From: Thermoplasmata archaeon
GTDB lineage: Archaea > Thermoplasmatota > E2 > DHVEG-1
Reading direction: 5' to 3'
Length of the DNA stretch: 34,903 bases
Assembly (NCBI GenBank): GCA_003649715.1
Contig: QMSS01000001.1
Coordinates: 1 to 34,903 of the forward strand
Shown here: one piece after another, positions 8,111 to 33,435 of the stretch
Layout of the letters: each line of letters begins with the position of its first letter
Numbering within the stretch: the first letter of the stretch is position 1
The notes under the pieces: generated by a model
The model's input: the letters and a program-made list of their open reading frames with translations, nothing else
Databases searched by the model: none
Told to the model about the DNA's origin: nothing
Program-made: the position numbers and the translations under genes

Positions 8111-9286
8111 CTATTCTTGTTTTTTCCATAGTGGGGAGATTTTTCTAAGTCGATTGATGATCTCTGGTAATACGTCTGTGACATAGGATATTTCTTCTTG
8201 TGTGTTTTCTCTTCCCAGTGACAGACGGAGGGATCCATGTGCCTCGATTGGTGTTAATCCTATGGCTATTAGTACATGTGATGGTTGTAGTTTTTTTGAG
8301 GAGCATGCTGAGCCTGTGGATGCGGCTATGCCCTTGTCATCTAGGCTTAGAAGTAGTGATTCACCTTCTATGCCGGTGAATCGGAAGTGGGCGTTGTTTA
8401 TAAGTCTTTTTTGTGGGTGTCCATTTAGATAGCTTTCTTCGATTTCTAATATGTTTTTGATTAGTTTGTCTCTCATTTTTTTGATGTGTTTTGTGTCTTT
8501 TTCCATTCTCTTTTTCGCTAGCTCGCATGCTTTTCCTAGTCCGACGATTCCTGGTATGTTTTCTGTGCTGCTTCTTATTCCTCTTTCATGTCCACCTCCA
8601 TGTATGATGGGCTGTATGCTGAGTCCTTCTCTTATGTATAGTGCTCCTACTCCTTTGGGTCCATACATTTTGTGGGATGATATAGAGAGTAGGTCAACGT
8701 TTATTTTGTTGGGATCTATGGGTGTTTTACCAATGGCTTGTACTGCGTCTGTGTGGAAGATGATGTTGTTTTCTCTCGCTATTTGCCCTATTTCTTTGAT
8801 GGGCTGTATGGTTCCGATTTCGTTGTTGGCATACATTATGGTTATGAGAAATGTGTTTTTAGAAATCGTTTTTTCAAGTTCATCAATGTTTATAATGCCA
8901 TGTTTGTCTACAGGTAGGTATTTGATTTTGTAGCCTTGCATTTCAAGGTGTTTGCATGTTTCTAGCACAGCAGGGTGTTCGATGGAGGATGTGATTATGT
9001 GTGGTCCTTTTGTGTATCTTTTTTCTCTGTTTTTGTATGCTATTCCCTTGATGGCTATGTTGTCTGATTCTGTTCCACCTGCTGTGAATATGATTTCTTT
9101 TTCTTTGACGTTTAGTAGACTTGCAACTTTTTTTCTTGATTCTTCTAGTGCTTCGTGTGCTTTTCTTCCAAATGAGTGAAGTGAGGAAGCGTTTCCATAG
9201 TGTTTGTAAAAGTATGGTAGCATTGCCTCCACTACTTTTTTGTCAACTGGTGTGGTTGCAGCATGGTCTAAATATATTTTTTTCAT
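8111..9286 (-). CDS. iscS: Cysteine desulfurase (NifS/IscS, class V aminotransferase)
   Basis: SSHKMYGPKGVGALY (PLP lysine) and STGSACSS (catalytic Cys loop). Confidence 0.93.
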   Translation of the reverse strand: MKKIYLDHAATTPVDKKVVEAMLPYFYKHYGNASSLHSFGRKAHEALEESRKKVASLLNVKEKEIIFTAGGTESDNIAIKGIAYKNREKRYTKGPHIITSSIEHPAVLETCKHLEMQGYKIKYLPVDKHGIINIDELEKTISKNTFLITIMYANNEIGTIQPIKEIGQIARENNIIFHTDAVQAIGKTPIDPNKINVDLLSISSHKMYGPKGVGALYIREGLSIQPIIHGGGHERGIRSSTENIPGIVGLGKACELAKKRMEKDTKHIKKMRDKLIKNILEIEESYLNGHPQKRLINNAHFRFTGIEGESLLLSLDDKGIAASTGSACSSKKLQPSHVLIAIGLTPIEAHGSLRLSLGRENTQEEISYVTDVLPEIINRLRKISPLWKKQE

Positions 9287-9293
9287 AGTTTTT

Positions 9294-10214
9294 TTAGTCT
9301 CCCCGGCCTATCTGCATCATTTTCTGCAGAGGTTTTTTTGCTTTTTCTATTGTTTCTTGTGATAATGTTATTTTTGGTTCTAAACTTTTTAGGCTTTTTA
9401 ACACTTTTTCTAGGTTGATTTTTTTCATGTTTGGGCAAACAGCTGTTTTTAGCGGATAGAATTTTTTGTCAGGTTTTTCTTTTTGCAGTCTATGGCAGAG
9501 ACCTTTTTCTGTTCCGATAATGAATTCCTTTTTGTTGGATTGCAAGACATGTTTCACCATGCCATTAGTGGAGAAAACATGGTCTGCAATGTCTATTACC
9601 TCAGGTTTACATTCTGGATGTACGAGTATCTCTGCCTTTGGATGTCTGTTCTTTATCTCAAGTATCTCCTTTGTCTCTATCTTGTGATGTGTGGGGCATA
9701 TACCAGGCCAGAGAATCAGCTTTCTATCATGTATAAACCGTTTTATATACAGCCCCAGGTTTTGATCTGGAACGAAGATAACATCTCTATCCGCAGGAAG
9801 GTTTTTTATAACCTTGGCGCCATTGGAGGATGTACAACATATATCCGATATTGCCTTTACCTCCGCAGGAGTATTGATGTAGGACACTGTTACTGCGGTG
9901 GGATGATCCTCTTTCAGCCAAGTTAGACTTTCTGCATCTACCATACCAGCCATGGGACATTTTGCCTCTATGTCCGGTATTATAACATTCTTGTCTGGGT
10001 TTAGTATTTTAGCGGATTCTGCCATGAAGTCTACACCGCAAAATATAATGTTTTCTACATCTGCCTTAGTGGCTTTCATCGCTAGGTCTAAGGAGTCTCC
10101 CACAAAATCAGCTATGTCCTGTACCTCTGGGATTTGATAGTTATGAGCCAGGATAATGGCATTTTGTTTTCTCTTTAGCTCATCTATTTCTTTCTGAATC
10201 CTTTCTCTTCTCAT
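9294..10214 (-). CDS. nadA: Quinolinate synthase
   Basis: MRRERIQKEIDELKRKQNAIILAHNYQ matches the canonical NadA N-terminus, with ATG at 10214. The track ORF extends to a TTG at 10325, adding 37 non-conserved residues that I regard as over-extension. Confidence 0.88.
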   Translation of the reverse strand: MRRERIQKEIDELKRKQNAIILAHNYQIPEVQDIADFVGDSLDLAMKATKADVENIIFCGVDFMAESAKILNPDKNVIIPDIEAKCPMAGMVDAESLTWLKEDHPTAVTVSYINTPAEVKAISDICCTSSNGAKVIKNLPADRDVIFVPDQNLGLYIKRFIHDRKLILWPGICPTHHKIETKEILEIKNRHPKAEILVHPECKPEVIDIADHVFSTNGMVKHVLQSNKKEFIIGTEKGLCHRLQKEKPDKKFYPLKTAVCPNMKKINLEKVLKSLKSLEPKITLSQETIEKAKKPLQKMMQIGRGD

Positions 10215-10397
10215 AAGAAAAAACCACGTACTCCCAAAAACTGGGTTGTATTGTCTTTGTGGATAAACAAAAAGGTTGGAAATAAAGATTACTCCTCCAC
10301 CACCCAATATATGTTTTTTAGCCAAACCTATTTATCCATGATACTGGATATCCAAATCTCAGTGGAAAAAATATTTGGTAGGTGGTGTATCTAGTAT

Positions 10398-10835
10398 ATG
10401 TTTGACTTGGTGGCGTTTACCATAGGATTTGTCATAGGAGTAGTATGTGTCGGACTCGCTATTGAGTTAGGTATAAAGAAAACATCTAAAACGGAGCCTG
10501 CATCAAGATCTACACATAGCTGGAGTATATCAGAAATCGTAAATCCTAGGGTTGTAGCTGAGTATCTGGGTGATGTGGAGATCCCGAAAAACGCAAAAAT
10601 TGTTGTAAATCAATATAAAAACAGGGATGTGCTTGAGGGGGTAGATGCCCGTGAAAACCCTAGTATAAAAGGTAATTTTATTATAGGTGATGACCGAGCG
10701 CTTATACTATCTGGTCCAGTGAAAAAAGATGAAATGGGTATATGGACTGTGGAAAAGGAGATTATCAGCAGGCTAAACAGATATTTTGAGGAGGCATGGT
10801 CTAAGGGAACAAAAATCAAGCAGCAGAAACAATGA
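10398..10835 (+). CDS. Hypothetical membrane-anchored protein (one N-terminal TM helix plus a ~110 aa soluble domain)
   Basis: FTIGFVIGVVCVGLAIELGI TM segment. I recognise no family motif. Coding-like composition; lies immediately upstream of mtaD. Confidence 0.5.
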   Translation: MFDLVAFTIGFVIGVVCVGLAIELGIKKTSKTEPASRSTHSWSISEIVNPRVVAEYLGDVEIPKNAKIVVNQYKNRDVLEGVDARENPSIKGNFIIGDDRALILSGPVKKDEMGIWTVEKEIISRLNRYFEEAWSKGTKIKQQKQ

Positions 10836-10847
10836 GGAACACATAGT

Positions 10848-12140
10848 ATGAGTGTGCTGATCAAAAACACTGTTATCATTACTCAGAATAAAAAAAGAGA
10901 GCAGATCCATGGAGATATCTACATAGAGGACCAGGAAATCATTCAGATATCAAAAAAACCAATCACCATCGAGGCGGACTATAAAATAGATGGTAGAAAA
11001 AAACTTGTTCTACCTGGATTGATAAACACCCATACACATATTCCAATGACTTTGCTTAGAGGATACGGAGATGACATGGTTTTAAAGAGATGGCTGGAGG
11101 AGAGGATATGGCCTGTGGAAAAAAAGCTTGACAGCAGATCGGTTGAGATTGGCACAAGGCTTGGTCTGCTTGAAATGATTTCTTCAGGCACAACAACATT
11201 TTTAGACATGTATTTTTTTGAGGAAACAATAGGTAAAACCACAAAGGAAGCAGGATTACGTGCCTTTCTAGGATTCCCATTGATTGATTTTGGAACTCCT
11301 GAATACCCATATGATGAGCTTTTTCCCAGATGCGAGAGTTTTATAAGAAAATGGAGAAAACACAATCTTGTAAGACCTGTTGTGGCTCCACATGCAACAT
11401 ACACATGTGGCCCAGAGACATTACATCGTTCTCTTGAGATGGCAGACAAATATGATGTACTCCTACACATACATTGCTCTGAGACAAGAGAGGAGGTATA
11501 TGATGTCCAAAAAAGATATGGACTGCGACCTATCGGAATACTTAAAAAACATGGTTTGTTATGCGACAAAATAGTTCTTGCCCACTGCGGCTGGATAACA
11601 AAAAATGAGGTTTTCGACATAAAAAACAGTGGATCAAAGGTTGTTCACTGTCCTGTTAGCAACATGAAGATAGCAACCGGTGGATACACTCCCCTTCCAG
11701 AGCTGCTCCATTCCAACATAGCTGTTGGTCTGGGAACAGATGGAGCAGCAAGCAACAACACATTAGACATGTTTGAGACAATGAAATTTTGCTCACTCAT
11801 ACATAAACATCATAGATGGGATCCCAGTATTCTGCCAGCACAAACAGTACTTGATCTCGCAACCATAGGTGGTGCAAAATGTCTAAGGATGGAAGACAAA
11901 ATAGGTTCTATTGAGGAGGGGAAAAAAGCAGATATTATAATGGTGGATCTAAAAAAACCGCGTCTAACACCACAACATGATTTTGTTTCACACCTAGTCT
12001 ATGCCATGCGTGGATGTGATGTGATTGCTACGATTGTAAATGGAAAACCTCTGATGCTTGAAAACAGAATACTGACACTTGACATGGATGCTATACTGGA
12101 AGATGCTGAAAAATGCGCCTATGAGCTAACAGCGGCATAG
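10848..12140 (+). CDS. mtaD: 5-methylthioadenosine/S-adenosylhomocysteine (5'-deoxyadenosine) deaminase, amidohydrolase superfamily
   Basis: HTHIPMTLLRG, HCSET and GTDGAASNNTLD metal and substrate motifs of the MtaD/DadD group. Confidence 0.85.
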   Translation: MSVLIKNTVIITQNKKREQIHGDIYIEDQEIIQISKKPITIEADYKIDGRKKLVLPGLINTHTHIPMTLLRGYGDDMVLKRWLEERIWPVEKKLDSRSVEIGTRLGLLEMISSGTTTFLDMYFFEETIGKTTKEAGLRAFLGFPLIDFGTPEYPYDELFPRCESFIRKWRKHNLVRPVVAPHATYTCGPETLHRSLEMADKYDVLLHIHCSETREEVYDVQKRYGLRPIGILKKHGLLCDKIVLAHCGWITKNEVFDIKNSGSKVVHCPVSNMKIATGGYTPLPELLHSNIAVGLGTDGAASNNTLDMFETMKFCSLIHKHHRWDPSILPAQTVLDLATIGGAKCLRMEDKIGSIEEGKKADIIMVDLKKPRLTPQHDFVSHLVYAMRGCDVIATIVNGKPLMLENRILTLDMDAILEDAEKCAYELTAA

Positions 12141-12175
12141 AGCCAAAAAAACCTGGAGGATATCTCTTCTCCCAG

Positions 12176-13444
12176 GTGATGCCTCTTATGTTGAATCTAA
12201 TTGGAGTTGCAATAGCATTTGCCGTGATAATAGTTCTGATACATAAAAGACTCAACTTTGGCATATCACTCATAATTGGATCCATAGTCGTGGGGATATT
12301 TTCCCTACAAAAAGTAGAGCCTATAGAGATCCCAATGGCTATGATAGAAGCCTCTTTTTACTCATTTGATACAAACAAAATCAATACTCAGACCATCGAG
12401 CTTGCGTTGTTGATGCTTGGAATCTATGTACTGGCGAAAACTATGCAGGAAACAGGGGCGATAAAAAAACTAGTGAAAAGCCTTAGAACAATTTTTTCGC
12501 AAGGTGGAACCTTGGCTCTGATACCCGCCGTATATGGTTTAATGCCTGTTCCCGGTGGTGCGCTGCTCTCTGCGCCAATGATAGATGAGGAAGGAAACAA
12601 ATATCATCTCACCAAGGATCAAAAAAATTTTTTGAACGTATGGTTCCGGCACATATGGTTCCCAATATATCCTGTTTCCCTAGCTATGATCCTTATATGT
12701 AGCACAGAGTTTTCTAACATAAACATATACAGTCTTGTTCTTGTCAACATACCCGCCTTCATAACATCGATCATAATCGGCATGGTTATGCTTAAAAAAA
12801 TAGTAGCTCATAGCACAGAAAAAACAGCTACTTCAGAAAAGGATTACACTGGAATAGTATATCTACTGCCACCAACTGTTCCCCTGCTTTTCTACGCAAT
12901 TCTTCAACAACTTGGGATATCTCAGATACAATCCTTTCTCATAGGGGTGTTTTTCAGCATCATACTCCTGTATTATCTAACAAAAACTCAGCGTACCACC
13001 TATATCAGTATCATCAAAAAATCCTTGTCCTGGAGACTTCCTCTCGCAATATTTGGAATAATGATTTTCCGTAAAATGTTTGAACTCTCAGATGCAAGCA
13101 CTGTTATAACCAACGTGATAGGTATGCTTCCTCTACCAGCAGTCTTCATGATAGTCATGATACCTCTGCTGCTGGGAACATTAACAGGCTATAACCTAGG
13201 CGCAATAGCATTATCCTATCCCCTTGTAGAACCGTTTTTCCATTTTGTAGAAATCAATATCGTGGGGCTAACCAGTATAATATTCATAAGCTCACTTGTA
13301 GGATATCTTGTTTCCCCAATTCATCTCTGCAATGTTCTGAGCAGTGAGTACTTCAAAACAGATGTCACACGGATGTACAAAATGTTTATTCCATCAGCAT
13401 TTATACTCCTGTTGATCAACACCTCTATTATGATGATCCTATGA
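12176..13444 (+). CDS. Polytopic membrane protein, DUF401-like putative permease
   Basis: About 10 or more hydrophobic segments over 422 aa. Family assignment is from memory of DUF401-type sequences only. Start may be ATG 12179. Confidence 0.5.
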   Translation: MMPLMLNLIGVAIAFAVIIVLIHKRLNFGISLIIGSIVVGIFSLQKVEPIEIPMAMIEASFYSFDTNKINTQTIELALLMLGIYVLAKTMQETGAIKKLVKSLRTIFSQGGTLALIPAVYGLMPVPGGALLSAPMIDEEGNKYHLTKDQKNFLNVWFRHIWFPIYPVSLAMILICSTEFSNINIYSLVLVNIPAFITSIIIGMVMLKKIVAHSTEKTATSEKDYTGIVYLLPPTVPLLFYAILQQLGISQIQSFLIGVFFSIILLYYLTKTQRTTYISIIKKSLSWRLPLAIFGIMIFRKMFELSDASTVITNVIGMLPLPAVFMIVMIPLLLGTLTGYNLGAIALSYPLVEPFFHFVEINIVGLTSIIFISSLVGYLVSPIHLCNVLSSEYFKTDVTRMYKMFIPSAFILLLINTSIMMIL

Positions 13445-14367
13445 ATGTTCTGGCAACTGTTAAAAAACTCGTGTCAAACCTCACATTCGTCATCACACTC
13501 GGTATAGTAATTGGTTTTCTAACAGAGGGATACCCAAGTGAATATCTCAGTGACATATCAACAGTTTTACTTGTCATCGCCATGACATTATCACTAAGTC
13601 ATCTCTCCATCAGAAATATAGACATCAGGCTAGAAACAAAAAACTTCCTCATCTCCCTGCTACTATGCTATGGAATGTTATCCACAGTTGCTATCCTTAT
13701 AGGCATATCTTTTTTCAGACAGCCAGACATACAAAATGGTTTTGTTGTCATTGCAGCGGTTCCACCGGCTGTGATGATCATCCCTATAACAAGGATACTA
13801 AATGGGAACATCAAACTATCGCTTTTCTCGCTATCTCTCCTTTATCTCATATCTATTATTTTGACACCACTGGTGATACTACTGTTCTCGAATGCAAACA
13901 TACCCATGGTAGAGTTGTTTAAAAGCATAATACTATACATAGTAACTCCGCTTCTGGTATCACGACTTGTTAAAAAAACACGTTTTCCATCAGAGATCAG
14001 TACCATAATCATCAACCTATGTTTTCTACTGATAATTATAGGCATGATTGGTGGAAACAAACATTTTATTTTTTCAAACATGAAAATCATGCCCTTTTTA
14101 TCGCTAGCATTATTTATCAGAACATTTGGAACAGGAGGCATAACACTATGGGCTGCTAACAAACTTCATGTACCAAAGGATGATCAAATCCCATTTGCCC
14201 TTTTTGCCTCTGTGAAAAACGAGGGGCTAGCAATGATATTTGCTCTCTCTATGTTTTGCTGTGCAGCCACACTACCTGCTGTATTATCCATGTTTTTTGA
14301 ACTAATCTGGATAGGTGTTCTAGTTCGGATAAAAAAGGCAAAGAACACTATGAAAACCATAGGCTGA
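13441..14367 (+). CDS. Polytopic membrane transporter, bile acid:Na+ symporter (BASS)/AEC-like
   Basis: 308 aa and about 9-10 TM segments, with AAVPPAVMIIP and ASVKNEGLAMIFAL motifs. ATGA overlap with the upstream permease gene. Confidence 0.45.
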   Translation: MNVLATVKKLVSNLTFVITLGIVIGFLTEGYPSEYLSDISTVLLVIAMTLSLSHLSIRNIDIRLETKNFLISLLLCYGMLSTVAILIGISFFRQPDIQNGFVVIAAVPPAVMIIPITRILNGNIKLSLFSLSLLYLISIILTPLVILLFSNANIPMVELFKSIILYIVTPLLVSRLVKKTRFPSEISTIIINLCFLLIIIGMIGGNKHFIFSNMKIMPFLSLALFIRTFGTGGITLWAANKLHVPKDDQIPFALFASVKNEGLAMIFALSMFCCAATLPAVLSMFFELIWIGVLVRIKKAKNTMKTIG

Positions 14368-14630
14368 AACAACAAAAAAACATTTTGTCATACTTCCTGT
14401 ATGTTTTCTCCTGGAAAAAATGAATATCAGGAATCAAATAAAAAACATGTGTTTTTTTGTTCTGTAAATTTTTTTTCAATCAAAAACATAAATATTTTCT
14501 GTACAGAGAAGGTTGATCCGAAAAAGTTTTTTTAGAAACTATCAGACATATCTAAAAACAAAAATGGTTTTTTTAAAAGTTTTTTCGAAATGTTTAATAC
14601 CCTTGGTTCCTTCTTGGAGTCTTCAGCAAA

Positions 14631-16265
14631 ATGAAAGATACAGAAAATAATCTCTACAGATTGTTGAAAAAACCTTCATTGTATGGTCTAAACATAAAAC
14701 ATGTAAAGGTTTTACAGACACACATATCCTTTGTCGTGTTAACTGGAGAATATGCATACAAAGTGAAAAAACCTGTGGATTTTGGTTTTCTAGACTATTC
14801 AACTCTTGAAAAACGTAGACATTACTGTGATGAAGAAATAAGGCTTAACAGGAGACTATGTCCAGATATATATCTGGGGGTTGTATCATTTACAAAGAAA
14901 AACGATGATGAGATAGAGATAAATGGAGATGGACCTGTTGTTGAGTATGCTGTAAAAATGAAGGAATTTCCACAAAACCGTATCATGACTCATCTACTTA
15001 GAGATGGAAAAATCGATGAAGACATAATAGACAACATATGCAGTATCCTAGTTGATTTCTACAAATCTGAGAAAACCTACTCCTCTACAGGTATAGAAAA
15101 ATATGGTGGGATGGAATCTGTTAAACATAATGTAGATGAAAACTTTGAGCAGACAAAAGAAATGATAGGCGTCACAATCCCCCAGGAAACATATAGGTTT
15201 ATTAGAAAAGCTACCGGCAGATTTTTTGAACAAAAGAAAAATGTTTTTAAAAAACGTGTGCAACAGGGCATGATCCGAGATTGCCATGGAGATCTCCACT
15301 CCGGTAACATAGTGGTATTACCCCACAAGATCTGTATTTTCGACTGTATAGAGTTCAACGAGAGATTTCGTTACATCGATGTTGCATCAGACATAGGATT
15401 CCTGGCTATGGACCTCGACTTCCTAAACCATCCATTTCTATCAAGCTATCTTATAAAACAATATGTTGAGAAAAGCAATGACCACAATGTTTTTGATGTA
15501 CTCAATTTTTATAAATGCTATCGAGCATATGTCAGAGGAAAGGTACTAGGATTCCAACTACATGATCCTCATGTAGATAAAAACAAAGAGAAAAACATCA
15601 TTAGTACTGCAAGGAAATATTTTGACCTATCACATTACTATGCATCACTCTTCTCCATGGAACTAAATAGGAAAAAACCAGTTTTGTTTATCATATGCGG
15701 GCTAACTGGTACTGGTAAATCCACAATAGCATCAAAAATCGCTATTGACCATCATGCGCAACTAATCAGCACCGACGTGGTACGTAAAGAACTACAGGGC
15801 ATCAGCAGGTTTGAAAAACACTACAATGGATATGAAAAGGGTCTGTACACACCAGAAAAAATAGATCTTACATACAAAGTGGTCCTAGAAAAAGCCGACA
15901 GTTTTCTTAAAAAAAGAGAAAATGTTGTCCTAGATGCGACATTCCAGAAAAAAATATATCGAGACAGGGCACACAATATAGCCAAAAAAAACCATGCTGT
16001 TTTCCTAATAATACAATGCATCTGCTCCGAAGATGAAGTCAAAAAACGTCTAGATGAAAGACTAAAAAAAAGATCCATATCAGATGGAAGATGGGAAATC
16101 TACCTTCAGCAAAAAAAGACATTCCAGGCAATAAAACAGGATGAAAAACAACATGTTGTTGTTATAGACACAGGAAACACCTCATATGAGTATCGGATGA
16201 ACATGTTTAGAAAAATCCTTAAAAAAATAGAGGAACTAGAAAAACAGGAGAAACAAAACAGATGA
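14631..16265 (+). CDS. Two-domain fusion: N-terminal aminoglycoside-phosphotransferase-like (APH/choline-kinase fold) kinase plus C-terminal P-loop (AAA_33-type) kinase. Function unknown.
   Basis: THISFVVLTGEYAYKVKKPV, catalytic HGDLHSGNI, and DCIEF...IDVASDIGFLAMDL in the N-terminal part. Walker A CGLTGTGKST and VVLDATF in the C-terminal part. Confidence 0.75.
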   Translation: MKDTENNLYRLLKKPSLYGLNIKHVKVLQTHISFVVLTGEYAYKVKKPVDFGFLDYSTLEKRRHYCDEEIRLNRRLCPDIYLGVVSFTKKNDDEIEINGDGPVVEYAVKMKEFPQNRIMTHLLRDGKIDEDIIDNICSILVDFYKSEKTYSSTGIEKYGGMESVKHNVDENFEQTKEMIGVTIPQETYRFIRKATGRFFEQKKNVFKKRVQQGMIRDCHGDLHSGNIVVLPHKICIFDCIEFNERFRYIDVASDIGFLAMDLDFLNHPFLSSYLIKQYVEKSNDHNVFDVLNFYKCYRAYVRGKVLGFQLHDPHVDKNKEKNIISTARKYFDLSHYYASLFSMELNRKKPVLFIICGLTGTGKSTIASKIAIDHHAQLISTDVVRKELQGISRFEKHYNGYEKGLYTPEKIDLTYKVVLEKADSFLKKRENVVLDATFQKKIYRDRAHNIAKKNHAVFLIIQCICSEDEVKKRLDERLKKRSISDGRWEIYLQQKKTFQAIKQDEKQHVVVIDTGNTSYEYRMNMFRKILKKIEELEKQEKQNR

Positions 16266-17293
16266 ACAAACTGAGGATACCCGGGTATCATATCGATATA
16301 GAAAAAGCAGCTCAGCTCATTAACCGAAAAGGATACAAAAAAGTGATGCTGCAGATTCCAGAGGGACTAAAAACACATGCATCAAAAATCGCAGATATTA
16401 TAGAAAAAGCAACACAGGCCACAACACTCATCTCCGCAGATCCATGCTTCGGAGCATGCGATCTCCTCAACCACGAAATACATAGCCTAAACATGGATCT
16501 TATAATACACATAGGACATCTTCCCATCCCAGAGATAAAAAACCCAGGTACTCCAACACTATTTATCAACGCTAAATCCACTAGACCAATAAAAAATGTT
16601 GTAGAAAAAGCCATGCCTCTGCTAGAAGGAAAAAAAATTGGATTAACTACAACAGCACAACACATACACACACTAAACAAGATCAAAAAAATACTATTAG
16701 AAAAAAACTTCAAACCAGTAATAGGAACAGGAGACAAACGCATAGCAGAAAAAGGACAGATACTAGGATGTAACTTTTCTACAGCCACAGTGATACGCGA
16801 CAAGGTAGACTCGTTTTTATTCATTGGAAGTGGAAATTTCCATCCACTAGGACTCATGCTAACCACTAAAAAGACAGTGATTGCAGCTGATCCATACACA
16901 AATACTGTTAAAAAAGAAGAGCTAAAAATGCTAAAAGACAAAATATTAAGACAAAGATATGCCGCCATCATACAATCAAAAGAAGCAAAACAATTCGCCA
17001 TCCTAATAACCACTAAAACTGGACAACAACGCATAGAGCTGGCATACACAATAAAAAAGATGCTAAACAAACAAAACAAAAAAGCCTACATACTAGTTTT
17101 AGACAACCTCTCATCAACCAAACTACAGGGATTCAGCCAAATAGACTGCTTCATATCAACTGCATGCCCCAGAATCGCTATCGATGATCACATGCAATAC
17201 AAAAAACCAATCATAACACCCCCTGAGCTAGAAATTATACTGGGAAAAAGAACATGGGATGAATACATACTTGATCAGATCCTATCAAAATAA
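16262..17293 (+). CDS. dph2: 2-(3-amino-3-carboxypropyl)histidine synthase (diphthamide biosynthesis, non-canonical radical SAM)
   Basis: MLQIPEGLK, SADPCFGACD and ISTACPRIAIDD, which are Dph2 family hallmarks. ATGA overlap with the upstream kinase gene. Confidence 0.9.
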   Translation: MNKLRIPGYHIDIEKAAQLINRKGYKKVMLQIPEGLKTHASKIADIIEKATQATTLISADPCFGACDLLNHEIHSLNMDLIIHIGHLPIPEIKNPGTPTLFINAKSTRPIKNVVEKAMPLLEGKKIGLTTTAQHIHTLNKIKKILLEKNFKPVIGTGDKRIAEKGQILGCNFSTATVIRDKVDSFLFIGSGNFHPLGLMLTTKKTVIAADPYTNTVKKEELKMLKDKILRQRYAAIIQSKEAKQFAILITTKTGQQRIELAYTIKKMLNKQNKKAYILVLDNLSSTKLQGFSQIDCFISTACPRIAIDDHMQYKKPIITPPELEIILGKRTWDEYILDQILSK

Positions 17294-17343
17294 AAAAATC
17301 TTTTTATCAACCATGTTACATCTATTTTAGATTGAAAAAAGAA

Positions 17344-17994
17344 ATGAGAAAACTGATGCTAAGATGTAAACCACTCGACAAACTATTGGATGGAGGAATC
17401 GAAAGCTCATCCATCACAGAAATATATGGCGAGGCTGGAAGCGGAAAAACAAATCTATGCCTACAAGCGGCTAGAGAATGTGTACTCAACAACAGCAAAA
17501 AGGTGGCATACATAGACACAGAAGGCATCTCAATAGAAAGACTAAAACAAATATGCCACGGTTTCGACTACAAAAAAATACTAAACAACATACTATTCTT
17601 CAGCCCAACATCACTAAGAGAACAAGAAAAAACAGTCGAAGATATCATAAAAATAGACAACATCGATCTAATCATAATAGACACGATAAACATGCTCTAT
17701 AGACTAGATGCAGAAGAAAAAACTGCATCCCGTTCACTCATAAGACAAATAACAGACCTACAGCTAACCGCAAGAAAAAAAGACCTATATGTATTATTAA
17801 CGGCACAAGTCTATACAGATGAAAATGGAAACATAAAACCCTTTGCAGTAAAAGACATAGAACACATGATAAAAACAATAATAAAACTCGAAAGAATCAA
17901 AAAAGGAGAAAGACAGGCAACAATAATAAAGCATAGTTCACAGCTTGAAGGAAAAAAAACTATGTTCACTATAACGACAGATGGTTTAAAATGA
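17344..17994 (+). CDS. radB: DNA repair and recombination protein RadB (RecA/RadA paralog)
   Basis: LLDGGIESSSITEIYGEAGSGKTNLCLQ Walker A and LIIIDT Walker B; ~217 aa. The track ORF starts at TTG 17332, but ATG 17344 is more likely. Confidence 0.88.
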   Translation: MRKLMLRCKPLDKLLDGGIESSSITEIYGEAGSGKTNLCLQAARECVLNNSKKVAYIDTEGISIERLKQICHGFDYKKILNNILFFSPTSLREQEKTVEDIIKIDNIDLIIIDTINMLYRLDAEEKTASRSLIRQITDLQLTARKKDLYVLLTAQVYTDENGNIKPFAVKDIEHMIKTIIKLERIKKGERQATIIKHSSQLEGKKTMFTITTDGLK

Positions 17995-21526: not shown

Positions 21527-23806
21527 TCAAAAAATGGAGAATAAATTTGGAAAAAGGGTTTTTAGAAGATTAAGCAGGGCTGATAGCCACTGTCTGAAAA
21601 ATACTTTATCTACTGGCATGTTAACAACAAGTGGATCAGACCATTCACTTTCAGCTTTGTGGATGTCCCTACTTTTTACTTTAACTTCATATCTACCTTT
21701 TTTACTCCAGCTATAGGAAACATTTACAGTTTCGCCAGAGTTGTATGGTCCCAACCAGTTGCTCATGTTGCCGTCGCCCCATGACCATTTATAGTATATT
21801 TGATCGCCATCAGGATCAATAGTTACTGTTGTGAATGTATAGCTTTCACCGACTCTTCCGCGTTTTTTACCTGTAGGTCTATCTGGTTTTTCCGGTGGGT
21901 TATTAATGTCTTCATTGTAGAAAGTAACGGCGGGATCTCCAAGTAGGTTTGTTTCATAGTAGCACCATCTCATACATGCCTGGTTTATACGGTATAGATT
22001 GTCTTCCTTTGAATCCTGATTTGCTTTTCCAATAGAAAATATTTTTTCTCCAAATACTGCATCCCAGAACTCTCGGTTAAAACGATGTGATGCCCCATCT
22101 GTGCCACCAGTTACACCCCAGCCGTAGCGTGCATTCATTACAACAGCAAAGGCGCCATGATCTGTTTTGACTGTAAAATATTCAGCTATACAGTCATAGC
22201 CATATGGGTTGTCGAATCCACCAGCCATACAGCCCTGGGAATAGATAAAACAGTATTGATCATTTGTCAGATAGGAGAGAACATCATTGTTTGTCATCTT
22301 CATGTTGTAGTCATACCAGGAGTGACCTAGATGGTTTATGATGTATAGTCCATTGTTTATATGACCTATAATCTCTGAGGTAGGCCAGTTGTTTCCAGGC
22401 CAGTCTCGGTCATAAAGAGTAGTAATATTGTAATCACTGGATGGTATTCCTACAGTGGTATATCCATTGGCGTTTGATCCATTTATTAGTTCATCCATAT
22501 AGTCACCACCCCATGTTGGTGGGTCGCTCCATAATAGTTCTCCTACTAACAAAACTCTATCATTGTATGTAGATGATCTTGATTCATTGTTTTCCATATA
22601 TGCTATGGTTTTGTCAACAAAATTATTTACTTCGTTGGAGTTACCAACACATGCTCTGCCGACATATACTTCAGCTATTAGATCGACATCTCCGCCACCG
22701 GGTCCATCATTTGGCTCACCCCATTTGTCATCACCATCATAATTATAGGTGCCATCTAGACATGCATAGTAGATATCTGAAGGCATATAGGTTGTCTCAC
22801 CGCCTATCCATGCCCTCACATAAAGTTCCTGCGCAGGGATTACATCTTCGTCTCCACCAATAAGAACATACTCGATGCCATTCTCTAGATAGATGTTTCT
22901 GATAAAAGTTCGGATTTCTCCAGGGGTTACATCCCCCCGGTTATTATTAATATCGGAAAGTGTTTTGATTATTGTTTTAACTCCTTTGTTGTTATGTGCT
23001 TCCTTCAGAGGCTCAAAATCATCTTTAAATTGATCAGTGGTTATTATAAGGAGATCATAGTGGCTGCTAAATGTATTATTTTTTCCTCCTGTGATATTTT
23101 TGGGGTACATTGAGACAACCTCTGGGTTGTCTATCATTTTTATTATTTCGGATCTATCTTTTTCTAAACCGCGGAATAAACTATTGGTATGAGTATCATC
23201 CCTGACAACTTCTACAGAAACTTTCATTTCTTTGAAATAAAAGAGTTCGCCAGTAGAAGTATTATATTCCATGGGGTATAACGTTAGAACTAGTATATCA
23301 TATCCTCTGAAGCTGTAAATACCGATTTTGTCAAATAATTTACCTGGAATGGTCTCGTTGTCATTATTATGGTTGTATTCCCTGTTCATTCCATGTTTTA
23401 GTATAGGAAAACCATTTATAGCTAGTGGGATAGGGTCACCGACAGGTGTGATTCTAAATCCTGATCCTAGATATATTCTATTTCTGGTATGAATTTTTAT
23501 ATCTATTACTCTACAATTTGGTGGCAGTAGTATGTATGCTCCTTTTGCAGGAAGGCTTGGTTCACCGGGGTTACCGATGCAGGGTGCGTTTTTCATGAAA
23601 ATTCTGTCATAAACAGTGTTATGTATTTGTATGCTGCTAATTGTTGGCTCGTCAAACAGATAGGTGACAGAAATTTCTCTAGGTATTTCATCATTATTAT
23701 TGTTGGCTGTGGTGATGGAAATAGCGGCTGAGGTGGACATCAAAATAGTTATAGTGAGAAAAACTTGGTACCATAAAATATGATTTTTAATCTTTTTTTC
23801 TATCAT
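21527..23806 (-). CDS. Secreted peptidase C25 (gingipain-like, clan CD) family protein with a C-terminal PKD-like domain and a short hydrophobic tail
   Basis: Signal peptide ILWYQVFLTITILMSTSAA. Propeptide-like GNPGEPSLPAKGAYILLPP. YVLIGGDEDVIP, candidate catalytic His in YIINHLGHSWY and Cys in CFIYSQGCMAGGFD. PKD-like DPDGDQIYYKWSWGDG...YEVKVKSRD...WSDPL. Confidence 0.8.
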   Translation of the reverse strand: MIEKKIKNHILWYQVFLTITILMSTSAAISITTANNNNDEIPREISVTYLFDEPTISSIQIHNTVYDRIFMKNAPCIGNPGEPSLPAKGAYILLPPNCRVIDIKIHTRNRIYLGSGFRITPVGDPIPLAINGFPILKHGMNREYNHNNDNETIPGKLFDKIGIYSFRGYDILVLTLYPMEYNTSTGELFYFKEMKVSVEVVRDDTHTNSLFRGLEKDRSEIIKMIDNPEVVSMYPKNITGGKNNTFSSHYDLLIITTDQFKDDFEPLKEAHNNKGVKTIIKTLSDINNNRGDVTPGEIRTFIRNIYLENGIEYVLIGGDEDVIPAQELYVRAWIGGETTYMPSDIYYACLDGTYNYDGDDKWGEPNDGPGGGDVDLIAEVYVGRACVGNSNEVNNFVDKTIAYMENNESRSSTYNDRVLLVGELLWSDPPTWGGDYMDELINGSNANGYTTVGIPSSDYNITTLYDRDWPGNNWPTSEIIGHINNGLYIINHLGHSWYDYNMKMTNNDVLSYLTNDQYCFIYSQGCMAGGFDNPYGYDCIAEYFTVKTDHGAFAVVMNARYGWGVTGGTDGASHRFNREFWDAVFGEKIFSIGKANQDSKEDNLYRINQACMRWCYYETNLLGDPAVTFYNEDINNPPEKPDRPTGKKRGRVGESYTFTTVTIDPDGDQIYYKWSWGDGNMSNWLGPYNSGETVNVSYSWSKKGRYEVKVKSRDIHKAESEWSDPLVVNMPVDKVFFRQWLSALLNLLKTLFPNLFSIF

Positions 23807-24025
23807 TTTAAATTAGCCTCAATTAATATTTTTATGGTTGTCTACTTTAAAAACTTATCTATATTTATAGTGATCTAATTATAAATAACCTTTTGAATAA
23901 AAATATCTGATTCGGATGAATTGGATTTTAGGTGGGTTAAATAGATTGATTTTAAATATTCGAAAATACATTACATGTGTTAGCATGTATTACAAAAAAT
24001 TGGTTTGATGCAGAGGGATATTTTG

Positions 24026-24343
24026 ATGAGAGAGGGGAAAAAAAGATGTGTTCTTACGAATGTTATTGAAACAGAGTTAGATATTCTAAAAAGACATATT
24101 TATGTGCTTAAAACCCTGCAAGAAAACGAACCATCTGGTATTATAAAATTATCTGAGTTGACAAAACATCCTCAGCACATGGTACGGTATTCTCTGAGGA
24201 TATTGGAACAGGAGGGATTGATTGAGCCATCGCCGCATGGTGCTGTTACTACAGATCAGGTTTCTAAGACTATTGATATGCTAAAAGTAAAGTTGAGGGA
24301 GATGAGAAAAACTATAGATGAGTTGATAGAAAAACTTGAATAG
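24026..24343 (+). CDS. Small winged-helix (wHTH) transcriptional regulator, archaeal family
   Basis: IIKLSELTKHPQHMVRYSLRILEQEGLIEPSPHG has a wHTH pattern, followed by a C-terminal coiled-coil-like helix. GAGGG lies 8 nt upstream of ATG 24026. The ORF is open back to TTG 24005 and ATG 24008. Confidence 0.55.
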   Translation: MREGKKRCVLTNVIETELDILKRHIYVLKTLQENEPSGIIKLSELTKHPQHMVRYSLRILEQEGLIEPSPHGAVTTDQVSKTIDMLKVKLREMRKTIDELIEKLE

Positions 24344-32883: not shown

Positions 32884-33435
32884 TTATAGTAGGTTGTATA
32901 TGCAGAGGTTGATGAATAGATTTGAGATTGAATGAGCGATTATAGGAGGAATAAGATTTCTTTTTCCATACCAGTAGGAGATAGCCAGTATGAATCCGGT
33001 TGTTGATCTGGAGATGAATCCTTCGATTTGAAAGGTTGAGGTGTTGAAGATGTGCCAAAGTGAGAAGATGATGGGGTTTATGGTTAGTAATATTGTAGCT
33101 GTGTGTTTTTTGTTAAATCCCTTCTCTTTTAGTATTAGATAGATTGAGCCTAGGAGTATGCCTCTGAATGTTATTTCTTCAAATATTGGTGCTATGATTA
33201 TTGATAGTATCAGGAAGGATATTATTTCGATTCTTTGGCATTTGATGAATAGGAAGAAAATATAATCTGCTAGTAGTATAAATGTTAGAGAGAGAATGAT
33301 GTTTTTTGTGTCTATAAAGAATCTTAGGCTTTCTTTGAAGACAGGTTTTTGTTTTCTGATTTTTAAGATTGCGAAGGTTGTTATTATTTCTATGACTTCT
33401 ATTATTTGGATTTGTAGATCGAATGAGGTGGTCAT
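32884..33435 (-). CDS. CPBP family intramembrane glutamic endopeptidase (CAAX protease/Abi family)
   Basis: FEEITFRG (EExxxR), FSLWH (FxxxH) and IIAHSISN (HxxxN) motifs within a polytopic 183 aa protein. Confidence 0.8.
   Translation of the reverse strand: MTTSFDLQIQIIEVIEIITTFAILKIRKQKPVFKESLRFFIDTKNIILSLTFILLADYIFFLFIKCQRIEIISFLILSIIIAPIFEEITFRGILLGSIYLILKEKGFNKKHTATILLTINPIIFSLWHIFNTSTFQIEGFISRSTTGFILAISYWYGKRNLIPPIIAHSISNLFINLCIYNLL

What the first reader, a model, noticed from the sequence alone, without database searches (positions are those of the whole stretch)
21527..23806. Two divergent secreted clan-CD (gingipain-like) proteases share a front end but carry different display modules
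ORF 21527..23806 and the hidden ORF 1..3289 share the same N-terminal order: signal peptide, propeptide-like G.PG.P.LP....ILLPP segment, then C25 core. Collinear motifs are [IL]I[AG]GD.[DE]D, IY[WY]..LDGT[FY]N.D.D..WGE, hydrophobic strand-x-H, and hydrophobic strand-GC. They differ in what follows. This copy has one PKD-like domain and a short hydrophobic tail. The other has CARDB-like plus NosD beta-helix modules and a huge low-complexity N-terminal region. C25 peptidases are well characterised only in Porphyromonas, where secretion depends on the T9SS and its C-terminal domain. An archaeon has no T9SS, so the export, anchoring and activation route of these paralogs is undescribed. A Sec11-type signal peptidase gene also lies in this window (5591..6427). 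The pair is the best candidate here for an uncharacterised extracellular proteolysis or surface-remodelling module.
Basis: partly seen in the sequence, partly recalled or inferred. Interest (0 to 1): 0.65.

Follow-up and report, generated by a model that had tools for sequence, protein, structure and literature searches.

The report
Two secreted archaeal C25 cysteine peptidases
The window encodes two distantly related secreted gingipain-family (C25) cysteine protease precursors from a sediment Thermoplasmata archaeon; this kind of enzyme is already known from such archaea, so the pair is a well-verified but ordinary finding, with an unannotated C-terminal tail and an odd base composition as side observations.

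Summary
ORF 21527..23806 (minus strand, 759 aa, "A") and the edge-truncated ORF 1..3289 (minus strand, at least 1096 aa, "B") are both family C25, clan CD peptidase precursors. Both have an N-terminal hydrophobic signal segment, a gingipain-type prodomain and a catalytic domain. The His/Cys dyad is His495/Cys526 in A and His579/Cys608 in B. A ends in one PKD domain and a 29-residue helical tail. B continues with CARDB and a NosD beta-helix.

An AlphaFold model of A (pLDDT 90.7) matches Kgp and RgpB best (Foldseek E 1e-19 to 1e-22).

- The two genes lie 18 kb apart and share 22-24% identity. They belong to two large, separate subfamilies and do not form a module.
- Exported C25 peptidases of MBG-D/Thermoprofundales archaea have been reported since 2013 and are highly expressed. 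A Sec signal peptide explains export, so no T9SS puzzle arises.
- The A-type front end also occurs at 44-50% identity in bacteria, with other C-terminal modules.

Two side observations seem new. A's tail is a divergent copy of a conserved C-terminal motif (…ERFPNAFPILRHLLGY) that follows a PKD domain in over 1,300 protein clusters; no Pfam or NCBIfam model covers it. The first 990 nt of gene B are almost free of G and T on the coding strand.

The parts
21527..23806 (-). Gene A: 759-aa C25 peptidase precursor (signal segment, prodomain, catalytic domain, PKD, tail)
   Evidence: ORF. Pfam C25 2.7e-60. 1720 homologues at E<=1e-5; the best 120 are about 690-840 aa (mostly about 740) with the same architecture. 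AF2 pLDDT 90.7. Foldseek best hits Kgp/RgpB.
23723..23806 (-). A residues 1-28: Sec-type signal peptide MIEKKIKNHILWYQVFLTITILMSTSAA. The cleavage site after SAA is inferred, not predicted by a tool.
   Evidence: Only hydrophobic 19-mer with KD >=1.6 in the protein. AF2 helix 2-25. Basic n-region and small residues at -1/-3 are read from the sequence.
23195..23671 (-). A residues 46-204: gingipain-type N-terminal prodomain
   Evidence: Pfam Propeptide_C25 2.5e-8. Family profile vs Kgp prodomain 5mun 1.9e-16 and RgpB prodomain 4ief_A 4e-5. Foldseek vs 4ief prodomain chains E about 1e-10, TM 0.70.
21926..23050 (-). A residues 253-627: C25 catalytic domain (clan CD)
   Evidence: Pfam positions 2-372 of 374. 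Foldseek Kgp 6i9a 8e-22, RgpB 1cvr 1.5e-19.
22322..22324 (-). A His495 codon (catalytic His candidate)
   Evidence: Aligned to RgpB His211. Invariant in 149/149 sequences. Codon checked.
22229..22231 (-). A Cys526 codon (catalytic Cys candidate)
   Evidence: Aligned to RgpB Cys244. Cys in 143/149 sequences. Codon checked.
21617..21874 (-). A residues 645-730: PKD / Ig-like domain, in the position of the gingipain IgSF domain
   Evidence: Pfam PKD_4 / PKD. PDB 4xed (PKD of an M14 peptidase from an MBG-D single-cell genome) 1.1e-22 by sequence. Foldseek vs 4xed: TM 0.93, rmsd 1.1, 48% identity.
21530..21616 (-). A residues 731-759: C-terminal helical tail PVDKVFFRQWLSALLNLLKTLFPNLFSIF, a divergent copy of a widespread FP-tail motif
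   Evidence: Conserved in archaeal orthologues. Aligns on the invariant FP. AF2 helices 734-751 and 753-758. KD maximum 1.39. The motif family has 1353 clusters. This copy scores only 7.4 bits against a tail HMM.
1..3289 (-). Gene B: second C25 peptidase precursor of a different subfamily. 1096 codons lie in the window; the C-terminus runs off the left edge.
   Evidence: Translation. BLASTP to A 4e-25. Family search: nearest relatives are 1474-1641 aa.
3200..3289 (-). B residues 1-30: basic n-region plus hydrophobic segment. This is a signal peptide or an uncleaved signal anchor.
   Evidence: Only hydrophobic 19-mer with KD >=1.6. A purine-rich stretch lies just upstream of the ATG.
2960..3199 (-). 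B residues 31-110: Thr/Lys/Pro/Asn/Gln-rich low-complexity linker. A role as a glycosylated stalk is inferred only.
   Evidence: Composition of residues 1-110: T 38%, K 16%. Coding strand of the first 330 nt: 2% G and 7% T.
2459..2950 (-). B residues 114-277: gingipain-type prodomain, with strongly shifted composition
   Evidence: Pfam Propeptide_C25 1.4e-5. Collinear with A's prodomain. D->N, E->K and V->T/I replacements against the family consensus.
1166..2296 (-). B residues 332-708: C25 catalytic domain
   Evidence: Pfam Peptidase_C25 1.3e-22, profile positions 3-372 of 374, when scanned without the N-terminus.
1553..1555 (-). B His579 codon
   Evidence: Same alignment column as A His495, which is invariant. 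Codon checked.
1466..1468 (-). B Cys608 codon
   Evidence: Same alignment column as A Cys526. Codon checked.
890..1123 (-). B residues 723-800: CARDB domain
   Evidence: Pfam CARDB 9.4e-7.
113..706 (-). B residues 862-1059: NosD / right-handed beta-helix
   Evidence: Pfam NosD 6.9e-18, Beta_helix 6e-12. TIGR04247 6.8e-16, below its cutoff.
5591..6427 (+). Context only: divergent Sec11/S26B-type signal peptidase I candidate. It is the generic enzyme that would cleave both signal peptides and is not specifically linked to them.
   Evidence: TIGR02228 4.5e-7, 29.9 bits against a cutoff of 51.85. SGSM, IIHR and KGDNN motifs. Best PDB hits SEC11A/C, E 0.035. No Pfam hit.

Best explanation
Genes A and B are two independent, Sec-exported zymogens of family-C25 (clan CD) cysteine endopeptidases. 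The organism is a Thermoplasmata archaeon related to marine-sediment MBG-D/Thermoprofundales.

Proposed route, with shown and inferred steps marked:
1. The N-terminal signal segment takes the unfolded chain through Sec. This is inferred from the sequence.
2. A type-I signal peptidase removes the signal peptide. This is inferred. For B, the segment may instead stay in place as an N-terminal anchor followed by a Thr-rich stalk.
3. The gingipain-type prodomain assists folding and keeps the enzyme latent until it is cut off. This is inferred from RgpB/Kgp structures. The homology of the prodomain is shown.
4. The caspase-fold catalytic domain cleaves peptide bonds with a His/Cys dyad (A: His495/Cys526; B: His579/Cys608). 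Fold and residue conservation are shown. Activity and P1 preference are not.
5. The C-terminal modules keep the enzyme at or near the cell surface or bind substrate. A carries PKD plus a helical FP-tail. B carries CARDB plus a NosD beta-helix and further sequence beyond the window. This step is inferred.

The likely physiological role is extracellular breakdown of detrital protein into peptides for uptake. This is the role already proposed for C25 enzymes of these archaea.
For: Family assignment:
- Pfam C25 in A at 2.7e-60 and in B's core at 1.3e-22.
- Propeptide_C25 in both.
- A combined 149-sequence profile hits the Kgp prodomain at 1.9e-16 and RgpB at 3.5e-13. Its alignment places the His and Cys on RgpB His211/Cys244.
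- His is invariant in 149/149 sequences and Cys is present in 143/149.

Structure:
- AF2 model of A: pLDDT 90.7, pTM 0.84.
- The best Foldseek PDB hits are Kgp and RgpB catalytic+IgSF chains (E 8e-22 to 6e-19), RgpB/Kgp prodomains (E 1e-10 to 1e-7) and an MBG-D PKD domain (TM 0.93).

Export: each protein has one N-terminal hydrophobic segment.

Lineage and context:
- Homologues are named Thermoplasmata/Thermoplasmatota MAG proteins, and some are annotated 'C25 family cysteine peptidase'.
- The orthologue in the complete chromosome CP070798.1 (53% identity) sits next to the same PAC2-eIF2alpha-L44e-RadB-Dph2 block as in the window. A is therefore a resident, vertically kept gene.

Role: the literature reports exported, highly expressed C25 peptidases in these archaea and matching Arg-endopeptidase activity in sediments.
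Against: - No activity data exist for any archaeal C25 in the papers I found.
- The residue aligned with the RgpB S1 Asp163 is Asn/Ser/Thr in the A family, in a poorly aligned stretch. Arg/Lys specificity therefore cannot be assumed.
- I had no access to model coordinates, so the dyad geometry itself was not measured.
- No signal-peptide predictor was available. The cleavage sites and the signal-peptide versus signal-anchor status of B are guesses.
- The best NCBIfam hit of A is the PorU sortase model. At 68 bits against a cutoff of 420 it only shows the shared C25 domain, but it is a reminder that C25 domains can act as transpeptidases.
Confidence: 0.78

Rival explanations
1. One or both enzymes are PorU-like processing peptidases or transpeptidases. 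They would cut C-terminal cassettes, for example the PKD+FP-tail, off other secreted proteins and fix those proteins to the envelope. They would not be bulk protein degraders.
For: - PorU is a C25 member, and the PorU model is A's best NCBIfam hit (3.1e-19).
- More than 1,300 clusters of diverse secreted proteins carry a conserved Ig-like domain plus C-terminal tail. This is formally analogous to the T9SS CTD.
- A carries such a cassette itself, as PorU carries a CTD. That comparison rests on my own knowledge of PorU.
Against: - The score is far below the PorU cutoff (68 against 420).
- Archaea have no T9SS or A-LPS.
- The best structural matches are gingipains.
- No co-occurrence or neighbourhood evidence links C25 genes to tail-bearing genes.
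- There are several C25 paralogues per genome and high expression. Both fit nutrition better than a single sorting enzyme.
Confidence: 0.07
2. They are envelope-maturation or surface-remodelling proteases. They would process S-layer or other surface proteins of the cell itself.
For: - Surface-display-type modules are present: PKD, CARDB, beta-helix.
- Gene A keeps a conserved position among housekeeping genes.
- Gene B has codon usage like highly expressed housekeeping genes: third-position A+C 0.84, against IscS 0.82 and eIF2alpha 0.74.
Against: - No substrate gene or S-layer gene is linked.
- The family shows rampant swapping of C-terminal modules and spread across bacteria and archaea. This is typical of nutritional exoenzymes.
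- Sediment activity and expression data support extracellular protein degradation.
Confidence: 0.1
3. Gene B is a decaying pseudogene or an assembly/sequence artefact, because the first 990 nt of its coding strand are almost free of G and T.
For: - Coding strand: 2% G and 7% T in the first 330 nt, 6% and 9% in the next 660 nt.
- A T-poor sequence stays open by chance, because every stop codon needs a T.
- No second assembly contains this protein.
Against: - The normally composed core (19% G, 19% T) is also open. It keeps the dyad and all twelve family-invariant residues checked.
- The prodomain keeps the G.PG.P.LP…ILLPP and GY.IL motifs, and 69 of 134 consensus positions.
- The bias stops exactly at the start codon.
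- Third positions are the most biased, and several other genes of the contig share the preference. This points to a real coding-strand or codon bias rather than noise.
Confidence: 0.05

Closest known systems
Gingipains RgpB and Kgp of Porphyromonas gingivalis (MEROPS C25; PDB 1cvr, 4ief, 4rbm, 6i9a, 5mun)
   Same: Same domain order: signal peptide, N-terminal prodomain, caspase-fold catalytic domain with His then Cys, Ig-like domain, C-terminal localisation element. Sequence-profile and fold matches cover the prodomain, the catalytic domain and the Ig position.
   Different: - Only 15-17% identity in the structural alignment.
- The Ig-like domain is a PKD domain.
- There is no T9SS CTD (no PF18962 hit). 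A 29-residue helical tail (A) or CARDB plus beta-helix (B) stands in its place.
- There are no haemagglutinin/adhesin domains.
- The S1 Asp is not recognisably conserved.
- The host is an archaeon.
Exported C25 'gingipain-like' peptidases of MBG-D/Thermoprofundales and other sediment archaea (Lloyd et al. 2013, pmid 23535597; Zhou et al. 2019, PMC6461988; Steen et al. 2019, PMC6752024)
   Same: Same lineage, same family and same predicted extracellular location. The PKD domain of A is 48% identical to the PKD of an M14 peptidase from the MBG-D single-cell genome studied by that group (4xed). A and B are members of this known set.
   Different: Those papers treat C25 genes as one annotation class. 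In the passages I searched (term look-ups in two papers) I found no description of the following points shown here: two deep subfamilies, the exchange of C-terminal modules, the FP-tail, and the close bacterial relatives.
Bacterial A-type C25 homologues in Ignavibacteriales, Zixibacteria, Phycisphaerae, Omnitrophota and Desulfobacterales MAGs
   Same: Signal peptide, prodomain and catalytic domain are 44-50% identical to A over residues about 1-630. Archaeal orthologues are 50-57% identical, so the bacterial ones are nearly as close. Some lie on complete chromosomes: CP070796 and CP070718.
   Different: The C-terminal parts differ: TSP3 repeats, Big_9/cadherin-like, FG-GAP propellers and dockerin-like Cys-Pro-ended repeats instead of PKD plus FP-tail. 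In a rough NJ tree the archaeal A clade is sister to one bacterial clade, and other archaeal and bacterial lineages interleave deeper. This suggests inter-domain transfer.
PorU, the T9SS C-terminal signal peptidase/sortase (NF033707)
   Same: C25 catalytic domain. It is the best NCBIfam hit of A, over model positions 360-732.
   Different: The score of 68 bits is far below the cutoff of 420. The PorU-specific N- and C-terminal regions are absent, and there is no T9SS context.

Membership tests
Peptidase family C25 (Pfam PF01364, MEROPS clan CD) | Match to the family HMM above the curated gathering score, over the full domain | tested here: met
   A: 205 bits against a cutoff of 23, profile positions 2-372 of 374. 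B core alone: 81 bits, profile positions 3-372 of 374. The full-length B scan gave no hit.
Peptidase family C25 (Pfam PF01364, MEROPS clan CD) | Catalytic His followed by catalytic Cys, each just after a beta-strand, alignable with RgpB His211/Cys244 | tested here: met
   Alignments. His in 149/149 and Cys in 143/149 sequences across both subfamilies; B has both. AF2 strands 489-493 and 519-523 precede His495 and Cys526.
Peptidase family C25 (Pfam PF01364, MEROPS clan CD) | Caspase-haemoglobinase fold like the gingipain catalytic domain | tested here: met
   A only: Foldseek best hits Kgp 6i9a/4rbm and RgpB 1cvr/4ief_B, E 8e-22 to 6e-19, probability 1.00, TM (target) 0.57-0.66. B was not modelled.
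Peptidase family C25 (Pfam PF01364, MEROPS clan CD) | Gingipain-type N-terminal prodomain (PF08126) | tested here: met
   A 2.5e-8 and B 1.4e-5. Profile vs 5mun 1.9e-16. Foldseek vs 4ief prodomain chains, TM 0.70.
Peptidase family C25 (Pfam PF01364, MEROPS clan CD) | Demonstrated endopeptidase activity | not testable with these tools
   Needs expression and assay. I found no characterised archaeal member in the paper library.
Gingipains in the strict sense (Arg- or Lys-specific T9SS cargo) | S1 pocket Asp giving Arg/Lys specificity (RgpB Asp163) | tested here: inconclusive
   In the phmmer alignment Asp163 falls opposite Asn445 of A, in a gapped stretch. Orthologues have N/S/T there, and Asp appears only in some at the next positions.
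Gingipains in the strict sense (Arg- or Lys-specific T9SS cargo) | T9SS C-terminal sorting domain (PF18962) | tested here: not met
   No such hit in A or in the part of B inside the window. It is present only in some bacterial members of the B subfamily, P0146 and P0148.
PorU-type T9SS sortase (NF033707) | Score above the equivalog cutoff over the whole model | tested here: not met
   68.2 bits against a cutoff of 420. Only the C25 domain part of the model is matched.
Known archaeal/bacterial C-terminal sorting signals (PGF-CTERM, PEF-CTERM, PEP-CTERM, LPXTG and similar) | Signature motif, then a hydrophobic TM helix, then a basic cluster; match to an NCBIfam CTERM model | tested here: not met
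   No CTERM model hits A or canonical tail carriers and the isolated tail at E<=10. The tail's KD maximum is 1.39 and it has no basic end.
PKD domain (PF00801/PF18911) | HMM match above cutoff and Ig-like fold | tested here: met
   31.7 and 30.3 bits against cutoffs of 27 and 23.5. 4xed TM 0.93, rmsd 1.1.
Signal peptidase I, archaeal/Sec11 type (TIGR02228), for ORF 5591..6427 | Score above the equivalog cutoff; Ser, His and GDNN boxes | tested here: inconclusive
   29.9 bits against a cutoff of 51.85. SGSM, IIHR and KGDNN are present. Best PDB hits are SEC11A/C at E 0.035. No Pfam hit.

The most novel reading that the evidence does not exclude
A's C-terminal end (PKD domain plus a helical tail with an invariant Phe-Pro) would belong to an undescribed archaeal surface-retention or sorting cassette. 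The canonical form ends …[FL][LF][EQ]xLF[EQ]R-FP-[NH]A-FP-[IL]LRxL[LM]G[YL]-COOH.

This cassette caps more than 1,300 clusters of otherwise unrelated signal-peptide-bearing proteins (beta-helix, propeller, papain-type, arylsulfotransferase, CBM and other domains). It stands where bacterial C25 enzymes carry a T9SS CTD or dockerin-like repeats.

The near-invariant residues and the lack of a TM helix would imply recognition by a dedicated receptor or processing enzyme that has not been identified.

The 0.25 is for this reading only. A more speculative extension, which I put near 0.05, is that a C25 paralogue is that enzyme, in analogy to PorU.
Probability: 0.25. Interest if true: 0.65.

Novelty: new member of a known kind. 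Interest (0 to 1): 0.3.

Why it matters
Exported C25 peptidases are thought to be the main tools with which abundant, uncultured sediment archaea attack buried protein. Their enzymology bears on carbon burial.

This window adds two well-delimited, intact examples with mapped domains and catalytic residues, and one high-confidence model. These could serve as expression constructs. It does not change what is known about the family.

Two side observations have more potential:
- A conserved, unannotated C-terminal tail on over a thousand clusters of secreted proteins could explain how these archaea keep exoenzymes at the cell surface.
- The 5' 1.2 kb of gene B is written almost entirely in A and C. 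This is an unusually clean case of coding-strand compositional pressure overriding amino-acid conservation in a folded domain.

Tried and rejected
1. AF2 with a 27-sequence alignment of orthologues sharing 49-58% identity with A gave a poor model: pLDDT 63, with the dyad region below 50. I discarded it and re-ran with 149 sequences from both subfamilies.
2. The full-length Pfam and NCBIfam scans of B missed the C25 domain. Scanning the core alone resolved this.
The 44-residue version returned only short contig-edge fragments without domain information. It was superseded by the representative search.
4. A local tail HMM against all ORFs of the window and 79 loci found only C25 orthologues. The window's own tail scored just 7.4 bits.
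5. The listing of cluster members gave no organism names for tail carriers. The taxonomic range of the tail therefore rests on the few named hits.
6. tblastn of window proteins against the genome-contig loci found synteny only in L032, because most of those loci are bacterial or short. The look-up of encoding contigs then showed clear synteny with CP070798.1 and none for P0102.
7. Literature searches for the tail as a named sorting signal or as a sequence string found nothing.
8. I considered that bacterial homologues might be binning errors. I rejected this because several lie on complete bacterial chromosomes or contigs over 200 kb.
9. I considered a functional link between the Sec11-like gene, or the Rce1-like CPBP protease at 32884..33435, and the C25 genes. 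I found no support.


Full report
**What is there**

The window is a stretch of an archaeal chromosome full of housekeeping genes: HisRS, QueC, IscS/NifU, NadA, Dph2, RadB, GINS51, L44e, eIF2alpha, PAC2, SMC-ScpAB and PhoU/PHO4.

Two long minus-strand ORFs stand out. ORF A runs from 21527 to 23806 (759 aa). ORF B runs from the ATG at 3289 to the left edge of the window (1096 codons, C-terminus missing).

A protein 100% identical to A over 97% of its length is deposited as a partial hypothetical protein of a Thermoplasmata archaeon MAG.

**Check of the observation**

Pfam finds the following in A:
- Peptidase_C25 at E 2.7e-60, residues 253-627.
- Propeptide_C25 at 2.5e-8, residues 46-204.
- One PKD domain, residues 645-720.

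Pfam finds the following in B:
- Propeptide_C25, residues 114-277.
- CARDB, residues 723-800.
- NosD/beta-helix, residues 862-1059.
- No C25 hit in the full-length scan.

Scanning B's core alone (window 1130..2302) gives Peptidase_C25 at 1.3e-22 over the whole profile. The miss is a filter artefact of the low-complexity N-terminus. The precomputed annotation of this protein has the same gap.

A and B align collinearly from the start of the prodomain to the end of the catalytic domain at 22-24% identity, E 4e-25.

**Catalytic machinery and fold**

phmmer and a 149-sequence profile of both subfamilies align A to RgpB. His495 falls on His211 and Cys526 on Cys244. In that alignment His is invariant (149/149) and Cys is present in 143/149 sequences. 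B has His579 and Cys608 in the same columns.

A first AF2 run on a shallow alignment was poor. The second run, on the 149-sequence alignment, gave pLDDT 90.7 and pTM 0.84. Its best PDB neighbours are:
- Kgp and RgpB catalytic+IgSF chains, E 8e-22 to 6e-19.
- RgpB and Kgp prodomains, E about 1e-10 to 1e-7, TM about 0.6-0.7.
- The PKD domain of an M14 peptidase from an MBG-D single-cell genome, TM 0.93.

A is therefore collinear with RgpB domain by domain. The PKD domain stands in the IgSF position and a 29-residue helical tail stands in the CTD position.

**Family placement**

A belongs to a very large orthologue group. There are 1720 hits at E<=1e-5. The best 120 are about 690-840 aa (mostly about 740), 49-57% identical and share the same architecture. 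The named ones are Thermoplasmata/Thermoplasmatota, and some are annotated as C25 family cysteine peptidase.

B belongs to a different subfamily. Its members are 37-52% identical to it and mostly carry PF01364 and PF08126. They end in many different modules: CARDB, NosD, FG-GAP/VCBS, PKD and, in some bacterial members, the T9SS CTD PF18962.

A scan of species-representative genomes found several C25 loci per archaeal MAG. It also found A-type front ends at 44-50% identity in Ignavibacteriales, Zixibacteria, Phycisphaerae, Omnitrophota and Desulfobacterales, including complete chromosomes. Their C-terminal parts are TSP3, Big_9, FG-GAP or dockerin-like repeats.

A rough NJ tree puts the archaeal A clade next to one bacterial clade, with other archaeal and bacterial branches interleaved deeper. 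A fixed front end with exchangeable display modules is thus a family-wide trait. The family has crossed the domain boundary.

**Genomic context**

A and B are 18 kb apart and unlinked.

A's position is conserved. In the complete chromosome CP070798.1 the orthologue (53% identity) sits next to the same PAC2-Nop10-eIF2alpha-S27e-L44e-…-RadB-…-Dph2-AAA_33 block. The closest species representative, L032, keeps L44e and eIF2alpha beside it. A more distant orthologue has other neighbours.

No secretion, maturation or anchoring gene is consistently adjacent. The ORF at 5591..6427 is a plausible but sub-threshold Sec11-type signal peptidase. That is a general housekeeping function.

**Comparison with the literature**

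Exported gingipain-like C25 peptidases in MBG-D/Thermoprofundales and Bathyarchaeota were reported by Lloyd et al. 2013 (pmid 23535597, cited in PMC6461988). They were confirmed in MAGs, where C25 genes rank among the most highly expressed extracellular peptidases (PMC6461988). They account for 41-45% of signal-peptide-bearing peptidase genes in White Oak River sediment, where Arg-endopeptidase substrates are hydrolysed fastest (PMC6752024).

I found no biochemical characterisation of an archaeal C25 enzyme.

The finding is therefore a new member of a known kind.

**Most likely mechanism**

1. Export through Sec by the N-terminal signal segment (inferred).
2. Removal of the signal peptide by signal peptidase I (inferred). 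In B the segment may instead stay as an anchor followed by a Thr/Lys/Pro-rich stalk.
3. Latency and folding assistance by the prodomain until it is removed (homology shown, function inferred from gingipains).
4. Hydrolysis by the His/Cys dyad (residues and fold shown, activity not shown).
5. Surface retention or substrate binding through the C-terminal modules (inferred).

P1 specificity is open. The residue opposite the RgpB S1 Asp is not conserved as Asp in a poorly aligned stretch.

**Side observation 1: the tail**

A's last 29 residues are conserved among its archaeal orthologues. They align, on an invariant Phe-Pro, with a sharper motif found at the end of PKD-bearing members of both subfamilies.

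A profile of the last 44 residues was searched against 1.84 billion representatives. It found 1353 clusters at E<=1e-3 and 264 at E<=1e-10.

Further properties of the motif:
- In 140 of the 148 best hits read back from the session file, the match ends within 3 residues of the C-terminus.
- 76 of 92 full-length proteins have an N-terminal hydrophobic segment.
- The consensus is …SYxxPxxxFL[EQ]xLF[EQ]R-FP-[NH]A-FP-[IL]LRxL[LM]G[YL]-COOH.
- The carriers are diverse: NosD/beta-helix, PQQ and FG-GAP propellers, papain C1, arylsulfotransferase, CBM96, disaggregatase repeats, pectinesterase and LRR.
- No Pfam or NCBIfam model covers the tail, and the motif strings occur in no paper of the library.
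- The few named sources are Thermoplasmatota/Euryarchaeota MAGs.
- The tail is too polar for a TM helix.

A receptor-binding peptide, an in-plane anchor or a cleaved sorting signal all remain possible. The query included the last PKD strand, so the search is biased toward PKD+tail cassettes. The window's own copy is divergent, at 7.4 bits against a tail HMM.

**Side observation 2: composition of gene B**

The coding strand of B's first 330 nt is 59% A, 33% C, 2% G and 7% T. The next 660 nt are 53/32/6/9. The catalytic core is near normal at 36/26/19/19.

The bias covers window 2101-3300 and stops at the start codon. Third codon positions of codons 1-330 are 93-98% A or C. GNN-encoded residues (G, A, V, D, E) make up 8% of residues 1-330, against 24% in the matching part of A.

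Against the consensus of 78 relatives, the prodomain shows D->N, E->K, V->T/I, M->I and G->N/K replacements. The core does not. The homologues have ordinary composition.

A weaker preference for A/C-ending codons marks IscS, RadB, PHO4, NifU, eIF2alpha, L44e and a CPBP protease in the same contig. It does not mark SMC, ScpAB or gene A. B therefore looks like the extreme of an expression-linked or gene-specific coding-strand bias. The cause is unknown, and I could not exclude an assembly problem without reads.

**Verdict**

The enzymes are ordinary members of a known and ecologically important class. Interest is modest at 0.3. The tail motif is the most promising lead.

Noticed in passing
window 21530..21616 (tail of A); proteins P0307-P0454: A's C-terminal tail is a divergent copy of a sharply conserved C-terminal motif (…LFERFPNAFPILRHLLGY-COOH). 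The motif follows a PKD domain in at least 1353 clusters of otherwise unrelated secreted proteins. No Pfam or NCBIfam model covers it, and no paper in the library contains the motif strings.
   Followed up: partly
window 2101..3300 (5' part of gene B, minus strand): The coding strand is almost free of G and T (2-6% G, 7-9% T), and third codon positions are 93-98% A/C. D->N, E->K and V->T/I replacements occur inside a folded prodomain. The bias ends exactly at the start codon, and homologues have normal composition.
   Followed up: partly
whole window, per gene: Third-position A+C varies from 0.35 (wHTH, ScpB) to 0.82-0.84 (IscS, CPBP, gene B), on the coding strand whichever DNA strand carries the gene. 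Translation and Fe-S genes are high. Gene A is average at 0.56.
   Followed up: partly
loci L010-L064 (bacterial MAGs and chromosomes CP070796, CP070718): The A-type signal, prodomain and catalytic front end occurs at 44-50% identity in Ignavibacteria, Zixibacteria, Phycisphaerae and other bacteria, with different C-terminal modules including dockerin-like Cys-Pro-ended repeats. A rough tree interleaves archaea and bacteria, which suggests inter-domain transfer.
   Followed up: partly
window 1..3289; protein P0121: The full-length Pfam scan, and the precomputed annotation, miss the C25 domain of B. It appears at 1.3e-22 once the low-complexity N-terminus is removed. This is an annotation pitfall for such proteins.
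   Followed up: yes
window 5591..6427 (+): A 278-aa membrane protein has SGSM, IIHR and KGDNN motifs and an insertion. It gives only sub-threshold matches to archaeal signal peptidase I and SEC11A/C, and no Pfam hit. It is probably a divergent Sec11-type signal peptidase.
   Followed up: partly
window 32884..33435 (-): An Rce1-like CPBP intramembrane protease (Pfam 8.8e-16), with weak similarity to the MrtJ/MroQ type enzymes that process C-terminal sorting signals in bacteria. Its third-position G is only 4%. No link to the C25 genes was found.
   Followed up: no
window 24005..24343 (+): A small gene with weak winged-helix (Lrs14/ArsR-like) matches is transcribed divergently from gene A, about 200 bp away. 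It is not found next to A orthologues in other loci.
   Followed up: partly
proteins P0055, P0061, P0077, P0087 (A family); P0161, P0165, P0173 and others (B family): Some members of both subfamilies carry a different C-terminal module of about 85 residues instead of the FP-tail. It reads …G[FL]GK..IT..AE…DAFV[FL]LFFI… and ends in a hydrophobic strand. It was not identified.
   Followed up: no
locus L080 (CP070798.1, Thermoplasmatales archaeon chromosome) 8001..17361: The A orthologue keeps the same neighbours as in the window (PAC2, Nop10, eIF2alpha, S27e, L44e, RadB, Dph2, AAA_33). The gene is therefore an old resident at this position despite the family's inter-domain spread.
   Followed up: yes
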